Shown here: in pieces, positions 60,941 to 64,000 of the stretch
How the letters are laid out: each line of letters begins with the position of its first letter
Position numbering within the stretch: position 1 is the stretch's first letter
Origin: Bryobacterales bacterium
GTDB taxonomy: Bacteria > Acidobacteriota > Terriglobia > Bryobacterales > UBA6623
Length of the DNA stretch: 64,000 nucleotides
Reading direction: 5' to 3'
NCBI GenBank assembly: GCA_965263255.1
Contig: CBDHHA010000008.1
Location: 3,525,987 to 3,589,986 of the forward strand
The notes under the pieces: generated by a model
Seen by the model: only the letters and a program-made list of their open reading frames with translations
Told to the model about the DNA's origin: nothing
The model's database searches: none
Made by a program: the position numbers and the translations under genes

Positions 60941-61657
60941 ATGGCATTGCGCCGAGTCTTCGTCGACCGGATCGAAGGCAGCGAGGCACTCGCGACGGGC
61001 CGCACTGCGCACCATCTGGCCCGGTCAGCGCGCCTGCGTCCTGGCGAGACGGTGGAGGTCTCGGACCAGTCGGCGGCCTACCGCGCGATTACGGCAGGCT
61101 GCTCTCCGACAGAAGTGCGGTTCCGGATCGTCGAGCAGCTGCCGGCAGCCGATCCTGCCGTCACTCTGGACGCGGCGCTGGCGATCATCAAGTTCCCGCG
61201 ATTCGACTGGGCGGTCGAGAAGCTGACTGAGTTCGGCGTGCGGTCAGTCATCCCGATCGTGGCAGCCCGCAGCGACGCGAAGCTCGTGGCAGCCGCTGGC
61301 AAGCGGGCGGAGCGCTGGCGGCGGATCGCGTTCGAGGCCGCGCAGCAGGCGCGATGCTTGGCCGCGCCGACGGTCAAGCCGCTAGTCTCGTTTGACGAGT
61401 TCATAGAGTCCTGCGAGAGCGACTCCCGCATCTTGGCCGTGCCCGGGGGACTGCCGATGCGGGCCCCGTCGTTCCGGGAGTCGTGCGCATTTCTTGTCGG
61501 CCCCGAGGGTGGCTGGACGGACGAGGAGCAGCGGCTAGCGCAAGGCAGGGGATTCGTTCCGACTGGCCTCAGCGGGACGGTCCTGCGGTCGGAGACCGCC
61601 GCGGTCGCGCTGGCAGCCATCGGTACCGGAAGATGCGCGGGGGACGGCACCCAGTGA
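60941..61657 (+). CDS. rsmE: 16S rRNA (uracil1498-N3)-methyltransferase
   Basis: 238 aa. MALRRVFVD, KFPRFDWAVEKLTEFGV, FLVGPEGGWTDEE and GTVLRSETAAVAALA. Confidence 0.9.
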   Translation: MALRRVFVDRIEGSEALATGRTAHHLARSARLRPGETVEVSDQSAAYRAITAGCSPTEVRFRIVEQLPAADPAVTLDAALAIIKFPRFDWAVEKLTEFGVRSVIPIVAARSDAKLVAAAGKRAERWRRIAFEAAQQARCLAAPTVKPLVSFDEFIESCESDSRILAVPGGLPMRAPSFRESCAFLVGPEGGWTDEEQRLAQGRGFVPTGLSGTVLRSETAAVALAAIGTGRCAGDGTQ

Positions 61658-61677
61658 ACGAATCCGGGGCCGACCGC

Positions 61678-62244
61678 ATGCAGCGATGCATCGAGCGGTT
61701 TGACGCCGCCAACGCCGAGGATCCAAACAGAGAGCCGGACGGACTGCCGAAGGAACTGGCCTACTCGCAGAGGATGACCGCCTGGCTGGAGAGGCTCGCG
61801 CCGGACGCGCCCGACGAGGTGAAGCTGGCGGTTCGCGCCCAGCACATCCGTCGGTGGGAGATTCCGCGGAACAGCTACCCGCAGGGCCGGGCCGCTTACC
61901 TGCGGTGGCGGAAGGAGCTAGGCCGCTTCCACGCGGACACGGCTGGGGCCATCATGCGAGATTGCGGGTACGGCGCCGAGATGGTCGCTAGAGTGCAGGC
62001 GATCATCCGCAAGGAGCGCTACAAAGCCGATCCGTGGGCGCAGCTGCTGGAGGACGTTGCGTGCCTGGTGTTCCTGGAGTTCTATTTCGAGGCGTTCTCC
62101 GGCGAGCAGAGCGAAGAGAGCATGGTCAATATCCTGCGCCGGACATGGCGCAAGATGTCGGTGCGCGGGCACGAAGCTGCCGGGACGATCAGCTACACTC
62201 CTCGCTGCGCGGCCTTGCTCAAGGCGGCATTGGGTTCGGAGTAG
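61678..62244 (+). CDS. DUF4202 domain protein
   Basis: ORF 61483..62244. The start is either ATG 61678 (MQRCIERFDAANAEDPN) or GTG 61654, which overlaps the rsmE stop. LAVRAQHIRRWEIPRNSYPQGRAAYLRWRKEL...LEDVACLVFLEFYF matches my recollection of DUF4202. Confidence 0.7.
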   Translation: MQRCIERFDAANAEDPNREPDGLPKELAYSQRMTAWLERLAPDAPDEVKLAVRAQHIRRWEIPRNSYPQGRAAYLRWRKELGRFHADTAGAIMRDCGYGAEMVARVQAIIRKERYKADPWAQLLEDVACLVFLEFYFEAFSGEQSEESMVNILRRTWRKMSVRGHEAAGTISYTPRCAALLKAALGSE

Positions 62245-62253
62245 GAGGGAACG

Positions 62254-62722
62254 GCGACAATCAGCCGCCCGTTGAACTGACGGACTGCCGGGGTGCAAGC
62301 TGACAGGCAGCCGACCGCCGGCCTGACAATCAGCCGCCCGTTGAACTGACGGACTGCCGAGGCGCAAGCTGACAGGCAGCCGACCGCCGGCCTGACAATC
62401 AGCCGCCCGTTGAACTGACGGACTGCCGAGGTGCAAGCTGACAGGCAGCCGACCGCCGGCCTGACAATCAGCCGCCCGTTGAACTGACGGACTGCCGAGG
62501 TGCAAGCTGACAGGCAGCCGACCGCCGGCCTGACAATCAGCCGCCCGTTGAACTGACGGACTGCCGAGGTGCAAGCTGACAGGCAGCCGACCGCTGGCCT
62601 GACAATCAGCCGCCCGTTGAACTGACGGACTGCCGAGGTGCAAGCTGACAGGCAGCCGACCGCTGGCCTGACAATCAGCCGCCCGTTGAACTGACGGACT
62701 GCCGAGGTGTAAGCTGACAGGC
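62254..62722. repeat. 69-bp tandem direct repeat, about 6.8 near-identical copies, each unit made of three 23-bp sub-repeats
   Basis: Units start at 62254 (5' end degenerate), 62323, 62392, 62461, 62530, 62599 and 62668 (truncated after CTGACAGGC at 62722). The consensus is CTGACAATCAGCCGCCCGTTGAA|CTGACGGACTGCCGAGGTGCAAG|CTGACAGGCAGCCGACCGCCGGC. Only about 5 variable sites occur across all copies. Confidence 0.97.
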
Positions 62723-62811
62723 GTCTTAGGGTTAGCTCCCTCCGGCTCCCGAGGTTCTCCCTGACAGCCAGTCGCAAGTTCCAGTTTCCTGCGCCCTTGC
62801 CGGACGCGACC

Positions 62812-64000
62812 GTGATCCCGCGGTACGCCGCGAAGCTGCTCGAGGAGTCGCTCGCGGACTCTCCAGTCACGCTCATCCAGGGCCCCCGTCAATGCGGCAA
62901 GAGCACCCTCGCACAGCTGGTAGCCGAGCCGCTGGGCTACGGCTACCTCAGCTTCGACGATCATGCCATCAGGGAGGCCGCGGTACGCGACCCGTCGGGC
63001 TTCATGGGCGCCCTTCCGGACAGGATGGTGCTGGACGAGGTGCAGCGTGTTCCAGAACTGTTCCTGTCGGTGAAGATCGCCGTCGACAGGCAGCGCACCC
63101 CAGGCCGGTTCATTCTCACCGGTTCGACCAACGTGCTGCTAACCCCCGGGCTGGCCGACTCGCTCGCAGGCAGGATGGAGACCGTCCAGCTGCATCCGTT
63201 GTCCCAAAGAGAAATCGAGCGCAGCACCGCAACCACCTTCGTCGAGAGGCTGTTCGCCGGATCGTTCGGGATCAGCCCCGCCGAGCGTCTTGGTGACAGC
63301 CTCGCGGAGCGGGTGGCCGCAGGCGGGTACCCGGCGGCACTCGCCCGTTCCCCGAGGCGGAGACCGGCCTGGTATCGCGATTATGTCAACGGCCTGATGC
63401 AGTCAGACGCCCGCGACATGGCGAGCATTCGCTCGCTCGAAACCCTGCCCAGGCTGCTGGCGGCGGCCGCCTCCCAGACTGCCCAGCTGTTCAATCTCTC
63501 GGATCTGGCATCGCCATTCCAAGTCAGCCGCAACACCATCCGCGACTACTTCATCCTCATCGAGCGGCTGTTTCTCGCCAGCAGGCTCCCCTCCTGGCAC
63601 AGCAACCTGATGAGCAGGCTGGTCAAGGCCCCGAAGGTTCACGTCGGCGACACTGGCGTCGCATGCGCGCTGATGGGTGCGGGACCAGCAACGCTGCGGG
63701 CAAACCGGTCCGTGCTGGGAGGATTGCTCGAGACATTCGTGCTGCAGGAACTGCGCAGGCAGGCGGAGTGCCTGGCCGGGCCGTACTCGTTCTTCCACTT
63801 TCGCGACCGCGACGGTGCGGAGGCCGACATCGTAATCGAGCAGGGGGCTCTCAACGTGGCAGGCGTCGAGGTCAAGGCGGGGGCGACGGTCTTCTCGTCC
63901 GATTTCTCGGGGTTGCGGAAACTCAAGGCTGCCGCCGGAAGCCGCTTCGCCTGCGGAGTGGTGCTGTACGACGGCGAGGCGAGCGTGGGCTTCGGCGAGC
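62812..64000 (+). CDS. AAA+ ATPase with DUF4143-like C-terminal domain (3' end outside window)
   Basis: This frame is open from 62713 to the window end and is absent from the ORF track. The likely start is GTG 62812 (VIPRYAAKLLEESLADSPVTLIQGPRQCGKSTL). Walker A is GPRQCGKST, Walker B-like is MVLDEVQRVPELF, followed by ILTGSTN. The C-terminal region is FVLQELRRQ...FHFRDRDGAEADIVIE...GVEVKAG. Confidence 0.85.
   Translation, partial: MIPRYAAKLLEESLADSPVTLIQGPRQCGKSTLAQLVAEPLGYGYLSFDDHAIREAAVRDPSGFMGALPDRMVLDEVQRVPELFLSVKIAVDRQRTPGRFILTGSTNVLLTPGLADSLAGRMETVQLHPLSQREIERSTATTFVERLFAGSFGISPAERLGDSLAERVAAGGYPAALARSPRRRPAWYRDYVNGLMQSDARDMASIRSLETLPRLLAAAASQTAQLFNLSDLASPFQVSRNTIRDYFILIERLFLASRLPSWHSNLMSRLVKAPKVHVGDTGVACALMGAGPATLRANRSVLGGLLETFVLQELRRQAECLAGPYSFFHFRDRDGAEADIVIEQGALNVAGVEVKAGATVFSSDFSGLRKLKAAAGSRFACGVVLYDGEASVGFGE

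What the first reader, a model, noticed from the sequence alone, without database searches (positions are those of the whole stretch)
62254..62722. Hierarchical tandem repeat: about 6.8 copies of a 69-bp unit, each built from three 23-bp CTGAC-initiated sub-repeats
Seen directly: a 469-bp array fills most of the 567-bp gap between the DUF4202 gene stop (62244) and the AAA+/DUF4143 ATPase start (about 62812). The units are almost identical, with about 5 variable positions in total (for example GAGGTG/GAGGCG/GGGGTG/GAGGTGT and CCGCCGGC/CCGCTGGC), which implies recent expansion or homogenisation. Each 69-mer splits exactly into three 23-mers sharing the core CTGAC-r-r-n-C-w-GCCG, so about 20 such motifs occur at a strict 23-bp spacing on one strand. 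All three plus-strand frames are closed by the TGA within CTGAC. Two minus-strand frames are open only because 69 is a multiple of 3. Inference: this is not coding. Regularly phased direct repeats of about 2 helical turns are characteristic of multimeric protein-binding arrays, such as iteron-like, centromere/parC-like or regulator-titration sites. CTGACA also resembles a -35 hexamer. I know of no described element with this sequence.
Basis: partly seen in the sequence, partly recalled or inferred. Interest (0 to 1): 0.65.

Follow-up and report, generated by a model that had tools for sequence, protein, structure and literature searches.

The report
Amplified operator boxes before DUF4143 ATPase
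The 469-bp repeat is a seven-fold amplification of a three-box control region found, at a strict 23-bp spacing, in front of nearly every member of a very common but uncharacterised ATPase-nuclease gene family (a candidate phage-defence gene), and sequence co-variation suggests that the protein binds these boxes itself.

Summary
In detail: 62254-62722 holds 6.8 copies of a 69-bp unit (98% identical). Each unit is three 23-bp sub-repeats, giving 20 boxes on one strand.

It is not an anonymous minisatellite. The downstream gene is an AAA_14 + DUF4143 ATPase-nuclease (PADLOC candidate defence gene PDC-S01).

- In 80 metagenome loci chosen by protein similarity alone, 77 carry at least 2 copies (usually 3-4) of a 15-bp box, cTT[AGT]C[AG]AT[CT][AG]GCCGa.
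- The boxes sit at 23-bp spacing, on the gene strand, immediately upstream. Density is about 17 per kb against 0.13 per kb elsewhere.
- In most loci the last two boxes form the -35 (TTGCAA) and -10 (TAC[GA]AT), and the ATG follows within 0-3 nt, which implies a leaderless mRNA.
- No other gene is co-inherited.
- The strongest protein-DNA covariation pairs residue 241, at the start of a predicted recognition helix, with box position 3.

Best reading: the boxes are the ATPase's own operator or assembly sites, and the window carries an amplified copy. A syntenic relative has 5 boxes; another lineage has 8, 13 or 28 at one locus.

Iteron, centromere, RNA and coding readings are not supported. No binding experiment exists. 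I found no description of the element in Rfam or in the literature searched.

The parts
62254..62722 (+). Hierarchical tandem array: 6.8 x 69 bp, equal to 20 scoring 15-bp boxes at 62254 + 23n (n = 0..19), plus a truncated 21st unit (62714-62722). Box A (CTGACAATCAGCCGC) scores 19.5 bits against the family matrix, box B (CTGACGGACTGCCGA) 10.4 bits and box C (CTGACAGGCAGCCGA) 12.0 bits.
62723..62760 (+). Non-repeat stretch between the amplified block and the proximal box.
62761..62775 (+). Degenerate proximal box CTGACAGCCAGTCGC. It is homologous to the last box of L082 and L174 and is out of phase with the array by +1.
62776..62811 (+). Short leader conserved among the closest relatives (GTTTCCTGCGCCCTTGCC...). 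It holds an alternative in-frame TTG start at 62797. No sigma-70-like promoter or terminator was recognised here.
62812..64000 (+). AAA_14 + DUF4143 ATPase-nuclease gene (PADLOC PDC-S01). It runs off the window end, with about 14 codons missing. Walker A is GPRQCGKST (residues 24-32), Walker B is LDEVQ (74-78), and the PD-(D/E)XK-type motif is D332...E337xD339...E353xK355.
63424..63597 (+). Predicted helix-turn-helix region of the ATPase (residues 205-262). The putative recognition helix is S239-RNTIRDY... The N241 codon lies at 63532-63534 and is the residue that co-varies with box position 3.
61483..62244 (+). Upstream neighbour, the DUF4202 gene. It is not part of the element. Its stop codon lies 10 nt before the array, with no terminator between.

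Best explanation
The array is an amplified copy of a cis-regulatory element that travels with the AAA_14-DUF4143 ATPase-nuclease gene (PDC-S01).

The element:
- It is a row of 15-bp boxes (consensus cTT[AGT]C[AG]AT[CT][AG]GCCGa; CTGAC[AG]ATC[AT]GCCGa in this clade).
- The boxes are spaced exactly 23 bp apart, all on the gene strand, and end at or near the start codon.
- Normally there are 3-4 boxes.
- In most relatives the last two boxes double as the -35 and -10 of a promoter that fires a leaderless mRNA.

Proposed mechanism (inferred):
- One protomer of the ATPase binds each box through a helix-turn-helix between its ATPase and nuclease domains.
- The 23-bp phasing (about 2.2 helical turns) lets neighbouring protomers contact each other.
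- Occupancy of the promoter boxes shuts off the gene (autorepression).

Origin of the window's array:
- An ancestral three-box block (3 x 23 = 69 bp) was recently amplified about 7-fold by unequal recombination or slippage.
- This added about 17 extra binding sites upstream of the original proximal box.
- The extra boxes would act as a sink for the protein and raise its autoregulated set-point, or they may be neutral.

Status of each step:
- Shown: the conservation, position, strand, phasing, promoter overlap, absence of any other linked gene, copy-number variation, and covariation with one residue.
- Inferred: binding by the ATPase, repression and titration.
For: (1) Positional association.
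- 17 of 80 genome hits to a two-box pattern lie just upstream, on the same strand, of an ATPase homologue (41-70% identity).
- These come from Acidobacteriota, Rhodothermales/Bacteroidota, Dehalococcoidia and Actinomycetota.

(2) Unbiased test on 80 loci picked by protein similarity only.
- They show a lag-23 autocorrelation peak (0.39 against 0.26 background) that is absent from gene-body and far-upstream controls.
- 70 of 80 loci exceed the 99th percentile of 4955 control windows.
- A cross-validated matrix finds at least 2 boxes in 77 of 80 loci, at about 17 per kb against 0.13 per kb elsewhere.
- Spacing is 23 bp in 257 cases and 22 bp in 13. There are essentially no minus-strand boxes upstream.

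(3) Promoter overlap.
- In 53 of 80 loci the proximal box reads GTTAC[GA]AT..GCCG and the next reads CTTGCAAT.
- An in-frame start codon (ATG or GTG) lies 0-3 nt after GCCG in 50 of these 53 (47 ATG, 5 GTG; one is 4 nt away, two have no start within 12 nt).
- An independent scan calls TTGCAA-18-TACAAT at exactly those boxes.
- 32 of 53 pass a promoter test at the fixed register.
- The best-conserved positions (T2, C5, G11, C13, G14) are not promoter positions.

(4) No flanking gene is conserved, so the ATPase is the only co-inherited protein.

(5) Covariation.
- Over all variable protein columns x box positions, the top pair is residue 241 with box position 3 (normalised MI 0.79; next best 0.42).
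- N241 goes with TGAC in 10 of 10 loci. P241 goes with TGAC in 0 of 67.
- TGAC-type proteins are not one clade by nearest neighbour.
- In a prospective check, 3 of 3 new N241 proteins have TGAC boxes, S241 has CTGGC, and one Q241 has CTAGC.

(6) Relatives of 33-36% identity keep the 23-bp phasing but with different box sequences.

(7) Residue 241 lies at the start of helix 240-252 of a three-helix unit.
- Some members give weak GntR/HTH_11 hits.
- The weak structural neighbours of the isolated domain are mostly winged-helix regulators.

(8) Amplification.
- The syntenic locus L174 (RsmE-DUF4202-ATPase) has 5 boxes.
- The Der-linked locus has 8, 13 or 28 boxes in three genomes.
- Unit sizes of 23, 46, 69 and 184 bp occur.
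Against: - There is no binding, footprinting or expression data for any family member. No solved structure exists.
- The helix-turn-helix is predicted with low confidence (pLDDT 50-60; domain model pLDDT 61, no Foldseek hit below E = 5). Pfam HTH hits are sub-threshold.
- The residue-241 rule fails or is mixed for T and Q (P0064 and P0068).
- The sequences are phylogenetically related, so mutual information has no formal P-value.
- Most G3-type loci were ascertained by a DNA pattern, whereas T3-type loci were ascertained by protein.
- In the window itself no sigma-70-like promoter is recognisable. The amplified block also lies 90-560 nt from the start codon, so promoter occlusion by these particular boxes is not evident.
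- The extra boxes may have no effect at all.
Confidence: 0.6

Rival explanations
1. The unit is functional, but the amplification is a neutral VNTR. The three-box operator was multiplied by slippage or unequal crossing-over simply because phased repeats are unstable. The extra 17 boxes have no selected role.
For: - The units are 98% identical, and shared variants sit in adjacent units.
- Copy number differs widely between related genomes at the same locus: 5 against 20, and 8, 13 or 28.
- The amplified unit size is arbitrary (23, 46, 69 or 184 bp).
- Most family members manage with 3-4 boxes.
Against: - Large expansions are seen only in G3-type, mostly Acidobacteriota loci, and they recur there. 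This could reflect selection as well as mutation bias.
- All amplified boxes keep the invariant positions.
- This reading is compatible with the main explanation rather than exclusive of it.
Confidence: 0.4
2. The boxes are read by something other than the ATPase. One version is RNA polymerase alone: tandem promoter-like modules, since 23 bp equals the hexamer start-to-start distance of a 17-nt-spacer promoter. The other version is a host transcription factor.
For: - The boxes contain -35-like (TTGCAA/CTGACA) and -10-like (TACAAT/GACAAT) hexamers.
- DNA binding by the ATPase is unproven, and its HTH is predicted weakly.
Against: - The most conserved positions (GCCG, T2, C5) lie outside the promoter hexamers. 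They are equally conserved in boxes 3-4, upstream of the -35.
- The element is kept across phyla with different promoter types and has no conserved neighbour gene.
- Box sequence changes with protein divergence and co-varies with residue 241.
- The boxes are about 130-fold rarer elsewhere in the same loci, and no cluster occurs elsewhere in the 64-kb window.
Confidence: 0.13
3. The array is a replication-origin iteron set or a plasmid/chromosome partition centromere (parC/sopC-like).
For: - Direct repeats are phased at about two helical turns and sit next to the gene of a putative binding protein.
- F sopC is likewise a run of near-identical tandem units (own knowledge).
- Homologues occur on many plasmids.
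Against: - There is no Rep, ParA/ParB or ParM/ParR gene. The only linked gene is AAA_14/DUF4143.
- The context is chromosomal housekeeping genes (RsmE, DUF4202).
- The region is 65% G+C with no AT-rich unwinding element.
- The normal form is 3-4 boxes that coincide with the promoter and start codon.
- On plasmids the gene sits far from the annotated replication functions.
Confidence: 0.03
4. The array is transcribed and acts as a structured or sponge RNA, on the sense strand as a 5' UTR or on the antisense strand.
For: - The minus-strand RNA fold is more stable than shuffles (z = -6.0).
- No terminator separates DUF4202 from the array.
Against: - The plus-strand fold has z = +0.74.
- There is no Rfam match in the window or in 15 related loci.
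- In most relatives the boxes lie upstream of the inferred transcription start (leaderless ATG).
- The CTGAcaaTCAG quasi-palindrome that drives the fold is not kept in T3-type boxes, and there is no compensatory change.
- The z-score rests on one 69-nt sequence repeated.
Confidence: 0.04
5. The copy number, or the whole array, is an assembly artefact, or the repeat encodes a repetitive protein on the minus strand.
For: - Repeats are error-prone in assemblies.
- Two minus-strand ORFs cross the array, and a gene caller annotated a comparable array as a 195-aa ORF in L177.
Against: - Units carry ordered point variants.
- Comparable arrays occur in several independent assemblies, including complete chromosomes.
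- The minus-strand ORFs overlap both flanking genes antisense.
- Arrays with 23-, 46- and 184-bp units cannot keep a reading frame.
Confidence: 0.05

Closest known systems
Plasmid iterons and their Rep initiators (R6K pi, RK2 TrfA, pPS10/pSC101 RepA, P1 RepA). Comparison from own knowledge.
   Same: - Direct repeats on one strand, phased at about 22-23 bp.
- They lie next to the gene of the protein that binds them, with one winged-helix protomer per repeat.
- Extra repeat clusters titrate the protein (P1 incA).
- The protein is autoregulated.
   Different: - There is no Rep-family protein, no origin features and no evidence of replication. The binder would be an AAA+ ATPase fused to a PD-(D/E)XK nuclease.
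- The boxes themselves form the -35 and -10 and abut the start codon.
- The locus is a single chromosomal copy.
Centromere arrays that double as operators: parC/ParR of plasmid R1 and sopC/SopB of F. Comparison from own knowledge.
   Same: - Runs of phased direct repeats, bound cooperatively.
- parC contains the promoter of its own operon and mediates autorepression.
- sopC consists of near-identical tandem units, like the window's array.
   Different: - There is no partition ATPase or adaptor genes.
- The unit length and sequence are unrelated.
- No segregation role is suggested by the context.
AAA+ initiators with arrays of their own sites near their gene: DnaA boxes at the dnaA promoter and oriC, the datA titration locus, and archaeal Orc1/Cdc6 with ORB elements. 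Comparison from own knowledge.
   Same: - An AAA+ module plus a helix-turn-helix or winged-helix DNA reader.
- Multiple phased sites next to the gene.
- Autoregulation, and a separate high-capacity titration locus (datA). That locus is the closest analogy to what the window's 20-box block could do.
   Different: - A nuclease domain is fused.
- The direct-repeat register is a strict 23 bp.
- No origin is present.
- Foldseek finds only generic AAA+ similarity to DnaA, RuvB, RFC and SSO1545.
PDC-S01, a PADLOC phage-defence candidate (AAA_14 + DUF4143 / COG1373).
   Same: - The downstream protein matches model PDLC04790 at E = 2.7e-148.
- The family is described as an ATPase fused to a PD-(D/E)XK domain, and as the fourth most common candidate defence gene in prokaryotes (PMC12988326; PMC3424549).
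   Different: - The literature found treats it as an untested single-gene candidate (bioRxiv 10.1101/2024.01.29.577857).
- It mentions no cis element, DNA-binding specificity or regulation.
- The window's copy sits among housekeeping genes, not in a defence island.
Promoter-located tandem-repeat (VNTR) expression switches in bacteria, such as repeat tracts in Neisseria and Haemophilus promoters. Comparison from own knowledge.
   Same: Repeat copy number next to a promoter varies between close relatives and can tune expression.
   Different: - Those tracts have 1-7-bp units and alter promoter spacing.
- Here the unit is a multi-box protein-binding module of 23-184 bp, amplified upstream of the promoter.

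Membership tests
Box array of AAA_14-DUF4143 (PDC-S01) genes, the element defined here | 15-bp boxes matching cTT[AGT]C[AG]AT[CT][AG]GCCGa at 23-bp spacing | tested here: met
   The window has 20 boxes scoring 8-19.5 bits at 62254 + 23n. The matrix was built from other loci.
Box array of AAA_14-DUF4143 (PDC-S01) genes, the element defined here | Located directly upstream of, and on the same strand as, an AAA_14 + DUF4143 gene | tested here: met
   Pfam gives AAA_14 at 3.8e-27 and DUF4143 at 8.4e-42 for the ORF from 62812. The same arrangement is seen in 77 of 80 protein-selected loci.
Box array of AAA_14-DUF4143 (PDC-S01) genes, the element defined here | The last boxes coincide with the -35 and -10, and the start codon abuts the last box | tested here: not met
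   This holds in 53 of 80 relatives. In the window the last good box ends 107 nt before the GTG, only a degenerate proximal box remains (62761), and no promoter is recognised.
Autoregulatory operator bound by its own gene product | The gene product binds the sites specifically | not testable with these tools
   Support is indirect: covariation of residue 241 with box position 3, no other linked gene, and box sequence diverging with the protein.
Autoregulatory operator bound by its own gene product | The sites overlap the core promoter of the same gene | tested here: inconclusive
   Met by sequence inference in most relatives. It is not resolvable in the window. No TSS data exist.
Replication iterons | Adjacent Rep-type initiator gene and origin features (AT-rich unwinding element, DnaA boxes) | tested here: not met
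   The neighbours are DUF4202 and AAA_14/DUF4143. No neighbour is conserved. Local G+C is 65%.
Replication iterons | Direct repeats of about 17-22 bp phased at about two helical turns | tested here: met
   Spacing is a strict 23 bp.
Partition centromere (parC/sopC/parS) | Linked parA/parB or parM/parR genes | tested here: not met
   None are found in the window flank or in 100 related loci.
VNTR / minisatellite | Near-identical head-to-tail units whose copy number differs between related genomes | tested here: met
   The array has 98% identity and 6.8 copies. The syntenic L174 has 5 boxes against 20 in the window. L039, L025 and L177 have 8, 13 and 28.
CRISPR array | Identical repeats separated by unique spacers, with cas genes or a leader | tested here: not met
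   The 8-9-nt 'spacers' recur identically from unit to unit. No cas genes lie nearby.
Described structured RNA (Rfam 15) | Match to a covariance model | tested here: not met
   There are no meaningful hits in the window at E <= 10. There are none in 15 related loci at E <= 1.
PDC-S01 (PADLOC), for the downstream protein | Match to the PDC-S01 HMMs | tested here: met
   PDLC04790 matches at E = 2.7e-148 over residues 1-396.
PDC-S01 (PADLOC), for the downstream protein | Anti-phage activity | not testable with these tools
   The literature calls it an untested candidate.

The most novel reading that the evidence does not exclude
The box array is more than a repressor site. It may be the docking platform on which the AAA+ nuclease is stored as an ATP-dependent, DNA-templated oligomer, one protomer per 23 bp, winding about 69 degrees per step. 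Infection or DNA damage would release or activate the stored enzyme. Under this reading the array length, which expands and contracts as a VNTR from 3 to at least 28 boxes, is a fast-evolving dose control for one of the commonest candidate immune genes in prokaryotes. The one-residue/one-base code (N, P or Q at residue 241 paired with G, T or A at box position 3) keeps paralogous systems from cross-talking.
Probability: 0.15. Interest if true: 0.85.

Novelty: new variant of a known kind. Interest (0 to 1): 0.66.

Why it matters
AAA_14-DUF4143 proteins (COG1373, PDC-S01) are reported as the fourth most common candidate defence gene in prokaryotes, with tens of thousands of copies. They have no known mechanism, ligand, structure or regulation.

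A conserved, precisely positioned DNA element that co-varies with one residue of the protein gives the first concrete, testable handle on the family:
- a predicted DNA-binding specificity and a predicted recognition residue;
- a compact promoter-in-operator architecture with a leaderless start;
- culturable hosts in which to test it, including Agrobacterium tumefaciens pAt, Sinorhizobium fredii NGR234 and Tateyamaria.

Practical points:
- These arrays are miscalled as genes (L177 and the window's minus-strand ORFs).
- They are sites of repeat-length polymorphism that can break short-read assemblies.

Tried and rejected
- Rfam scans of the window (E <= 10) and of 15 related loci (E <= 1) gave nothing relevant.
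- RNA folding: the plus strand is unremarkable. The minus strand has z = -6, but this rests on one repeated unit, and the quasi-palindrome behind it is absent from other box types.
- The strict core CTGACNNNCNGCCG was too narrow. It gave 0 hits in the 80 protein-selected loci until autocorrelation and a matrix revealed the broader box.
- A search for a conserved neighbour gene that could encode a separate regulator found none.
- Viral contigs contain no ATPase relatives and no box arrays. The single hit, L181, is a chance match in coding DNA. A phage-borne decoy idea therefore has no support.
- PDB searches by sequence and by profile found only P-loop similarity.
- Foldseek on the full model gave generic AAA+ hits plus Card1. 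Foldseek on the isolated middle domain gave no significant hit. That domain model has low confidence.
- P0001, the 98%-identical relative, could not be located on a contig, so the closest strain comparison was not possible.
- A literature search for 'AAA_14' returned only noise. Searches for DUF4143, COG1373 and PDC-S01 returned no functional or regulatory study.
- Promoter and terminator scans of the window's own leader found nothing.
Full report
1. THE OBSERVATION

- Tandem Repeats Finder reports 62256-62722, period 69, 6.8 copies, 98% matches, no indels, score 899. It is by far the strongest repeat in the window.
- Laid out from 62254, the seven units differ by five substitutions at four positions. 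Shared variants sit in adjacent units, as expected from local duplication.
- Each 69-mer is three 23-mers that share CTGAC...C.GCCG. All ten shared positions fall in the first 14 bases.
- The core occurs 19 times at exactly 23-bp spacing, plus a 20th copy that begins GCGAC. Shuffles of the window predict 0.47 matches.
- No plus-strand ORF crosses the array. Two minus-strand ORFs do, but they overlap both flanking genes antisense.
- The flanking genes are DUF4202 (stop at 62244) and an AAA_14 + DUF4143 protein starting at GTG 62812, or TTG 62797.

2. WHAT IT IS ATTACHED TO

A scan of 185,579 species-representative genomes with a two-box pattern returned 80 loci. Most were single chance hits in high-G+C actinomycetes. 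In 17 loci, however, the match lay just upstream of, and on the same strand as, a homologue of the window's ATPase (41-70% identity). These loci come from Bryobacterales and other Acidobacteriota, Rhodothermales/Bacteroidota, Dehalococcoidia and Conexibacteraceae.

Array unit size varies between these loci:
- L079 has six 23-bp units.
- L025 has six 46-bp units.
- L003 has five 23-bp units plus degenerate copies.

The upstream neighbour also differs: Der GTPase in L025, DUF4202 in the window. The link is therefore to the ATPase.

3. UNBIASED TEST

That set was ascertained through the DNA motif, so I also took 80 metagenome loci chosen only by protein similarity (53-64% identity).
- The strict core was absent from them.
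- Their upstream 200 nt nevertheless showed a sharp autocorrelation peak at lag 23 (0.389 against about 0.26). Echoes appeared at lags 46 and 69. Gene-body and far-upstream controls showed none.
- The underlying box is cTT[AGT]C[AG]AT[CT][AG]GCCGa, 15.7 bits. T2, C5, G11, C13 and G14 are nearly invariant. The window's CTGACAATCAGCCG is one variant of it.
- With this matrix, 79 of 80 loci have at least one box and 77 of 80 have at least two. The mode is 3-4 and the maximum is 6.
- All boxes are on the gene strand. Spacing is 23 bp 257 times and 22 bp 13 times. The background is about 1 box per 10 kb.
- Model-free: 70 of 80 loci exceed the 99th percentile of 4955 control windows for lag-23 identity.
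- With split-half cross-validation, 77 of 80 test loci have at least 2 boxes, at about 17 per kb against 0.13 per kb elsewhere.

4. ANATOMY IN THE FAMILY

Class I (53 of 80 loci):
- The proximal box reads GTTAC[GA]AT[CT][AG]GCCG, the next CTTGCAAT..., and the third CTTTCAAT...
- An in-frame start codon (ATG or GTG) lies 0-3 nt after GCCG in 50 of these 53 (47 ATG, 5 GTG; one is 4 nt away, two have no start within 12 nt).
- This places TTGCAA, an 18-nt spacer and TAC[GA]AT so that the start codon lies 7-9 nt after the -10. That is the geometry of a leaderless mRNA. This is an inference; no TSS data exist.
- The consensus scanner independently calls TTGCAA-18-TACAAT at those boxes in L152 and L103.
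- 32 of 53 loci pass a promoter test at the fixed register.

Class II (24 of 80 loci):
- The last box supplies the -35.
- A separate TATCAT or TACGAT supplies the -10.
- The start codon follows 5-8 nt later.

The most conserved positions (GCCG, T2, C5) are not promoter positions, and they are kept equally in boxes upstream of the -35. Something other than RNA polymerase therefore reads the box.

5. WHO READS IT

- No flanking ORF is conserved across about 100 loci. The ATPase is the only protein that travels with the boxes.
- The protein has Walker A and B motifs and a PD-(D/E)XK-type D...ExD...ExK motif, all invariant.
- Between them lies a three-helix unit, residues 211-221, 229-236 and 240-252 in the AlphaFold model, though at low confidence. 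It contains the pattern L-x-x-L-A-x-x-F-x-V-S-R-x-T-I-R-D-Y.
- Some members give sub-threshold GntR or HTH_11 hits.
- The weak structural neighbours of the isolated domain are mostly winged-helix regulators, but none is significant.
- The strongest argument is covariation. Over all variable protein columns against all variable box positions, the top pair is residue 241 with box position 3, at normalised mutual information 0.79. Residue 241 is the x in S-R-x-T, in the first turn of the third helix. The next pair scores 0.42.
- N241 goes with TGAC boxes in 10 of 10 loci. P241 goes with TT[TGA]C and never with TGAC (0 of 67). Q241 goes mostly with TAGC or TTAC.
- TGAC-type proteins are not each other's nearest relatives in several cases.
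- A prospective check on seven further proteins gave N to TGAC in 3 of 3, S to CTGGC, and one Q to CTAGC. One Q was mixed and one T failed.
- Homologues at 33-36% identity keep the 23-bp phasing with different box sequences: S. fredii NGR234 has five ATTGAcACTTTcACCg, and Rhizobium CCGE531 has five TTAACATTTCGCCA. At 30% identity or below the arrangement disappears or becomes a palindrome.
- Box and protein therefore diverge together.

6. THE WINDOW'S COPY

The 69-bp unit is three boxes, which is the usual size of a whole array. The window therefore carries a three-box block amplified 6.8-fold, giving 20 scoring boxes. It is followed by 38 nt of unique sequence, a degenerate proximal box at 62761, and a short leader homologous to those of L082 and L174.

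Copy number varies at fixed loci:
- L174 is syntenic with the window (RsmE-DUF4202-ATPase, 72% protein identity). It has only five boxes in a 297-nt gap.
- The Der-linked locus has 8 boxes (L039), 13 boxes (L025) and 28 boxes (L177; 46 bp x 13.1, 99% identical).
- L024 has a 184-bp unit repeated 3.3 times.

Across 107 loci, arrays with T or A at box position 3 hold 0-6 boxes. G3-type arrays hold 3-28, and the window's is the second largest. The amplification thus behaves as a VNTR built from a functional module.

In the window itself no sigma-70-type promoter or terminator is recognisable. How these particular boxes affect transcription is therefore open.

7. MECHANISM AND RIVALS

Best-supported explanation (confidence about 0.6):
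- The boxes are the cognate sites of the ATPase's helix-turn-helix.
- They are bound one protomer per box and cooperatively, because of the 23-bp phasing.
- Occupancy of the promoter boxes gives autorepression.
- The window's extra boxes would sequester protein and raise its set-point, by analogy with datA or P1 incA (own knowledge), or they may be neutral.

Rivals:
- A neutral-VNTR reading of the amplification is compatible with this explanation, and I give it about 0.4.
- A promoter-only or host-factor reading (about 0.13) does not explain the GCCG conservation, the cross-phylum linkage or the covariation.
- Iteron and centromere readings (about 0.03) fail on the defining gene content.
- An RNA reading (about 0.04) rests only on a minus-strand fold z-score of -6, which comes from one repeated unit. 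It conflicts with the leaderless geometry and with the negative Rfam results.
- Coding is excluded because unit lengths of 23, 46 and 184 bp cannot keep a frame.

8. WHAT IS KNOWN

- The protein is PADLOC's PDC-S01 (E = 2.7e-148).
- It was predicted as a defence candidate by 'guilt by embedding' and has not been tested (bioRxiv 10.1101/2024.01.29.577857).
- It is reported as the fourth most common such gene in prokaryotes and described as an ATPase fused to a PD-(D/E)XK domain (PMC12988326; PMC3424549).
- Searches for DUF4143, COG1373 and PDC-S01 found no paper on its regulation, DNA binding or upstream repeats. No PDB entry matches beyond the P-loop.
- Within the limits of that library, the element appears to be undescribed. 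The library lacks most subscription journals.
- In kind, it is a new variant of a familiar theme: phased direct-repeat operators or iterons next to the gene of their binding protein.

9. VERDICT

The protein-binding-array reading and the ATPase association hold. The iteron and centromere analogies do not.
- Interest is 0.66. The finding is not a new category of system. It does reveal a conserved cis-element, a putative recognition code and a repeat-length polymorphism for a very abundant family of unknown mechanism, and it can be tested in culturable Alphaproteobacteria.

Noticed in passing
L082 1-850: Upstream of the intact ATPase lie two degenerate tandem copies, about 465 bp each, of [box array + 5' fragment of an ATPase gene]. 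This suggests past recombination or cassette replacement at the array.
   Followed up: partly
L177 803-1403; window 61918-62964 (-) and 62193-62876 (-): A public gene call (195 aa) in L177 is nothing but the 46-bp x 13 box array. The window's long minus-strand ORFs through the array are the same kind of artefact.
   Followed up: yes
L030 7003-7095 and L032 6558-6650: Four-unit 23-bp tandem arrays carry the CTGACNNNCNGCCG core in an Actinomycetota MAG and a Bacillota MAG, with no ATPase homologue within the 8-kb loci. They may be orphan arrays or coincidence.
   Followed up: partly
L170 (Moraxella bovis plasmid) about 640-694: A homologue at 30% identity has a 45-bp perfect palindrome (AAACCTAGTTTAATTTAAGATATAATCTTAAATTAAACTAGGTTT) abutting its ATG instead of direct repeats. 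This is a different operator architecture in a distant subfamily.
   Followed up: no
L169 (S. fredii NGR234 pNGR234b) about 540-660; L168 about 520-630: Homologues at 33-34% identity have five 23-bp-phased boxes of unrelated sequence (ATTGAcACTTTcACCg; TTAACATTTCGCCA). Each subfamily seems to have its own box.
   Followed up: partly
L174 1273-1303: A 13-bp-stem hairpin (GATGTTTGGCCAG / CTGGCCAAACATC) lies between DUF4202 and the array in the syntenic relative. The window lacks this roughly 210-nt stretch, and its array starts 10 nt after the DUF4202 stop.
   Followed up: no
L176 1-1113; L165 160-1337 and 3751-6218: Mobile-element genes sit next to some array + ATPase units. L176 has a group II intron reverse transcriptase. 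The Sphingomonas plasmid locus L165 has an IS3 transposase, a tyrosine recombinase and a Mu-type transposase.
   Followed up: no
L061 4814-7998: Two ATPase paralogues (43% and 41% identity to the window protein) are placed divergently, with box clusters between them.
   Followed up: no
window 62245-62815, minus strand: The predicted RNA fold of the minus strand is much more stable than shuffles (z = -6.0), while the plus strand is not (z = +0.74). I attribute this to the CTGAcaaTCAG quasi-palindrome plus G-U pairs repeated 7 times. This is otherwise unexplained.
   Followed up: partly
window 61483-62244: The DUF4202 ORF as listed (253 aa) is probably over-extended at its 5' end. The Pfam domain covers residues 68-245, and the syntenic orthologue in L174 is 197 aa.
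   Followed up: no
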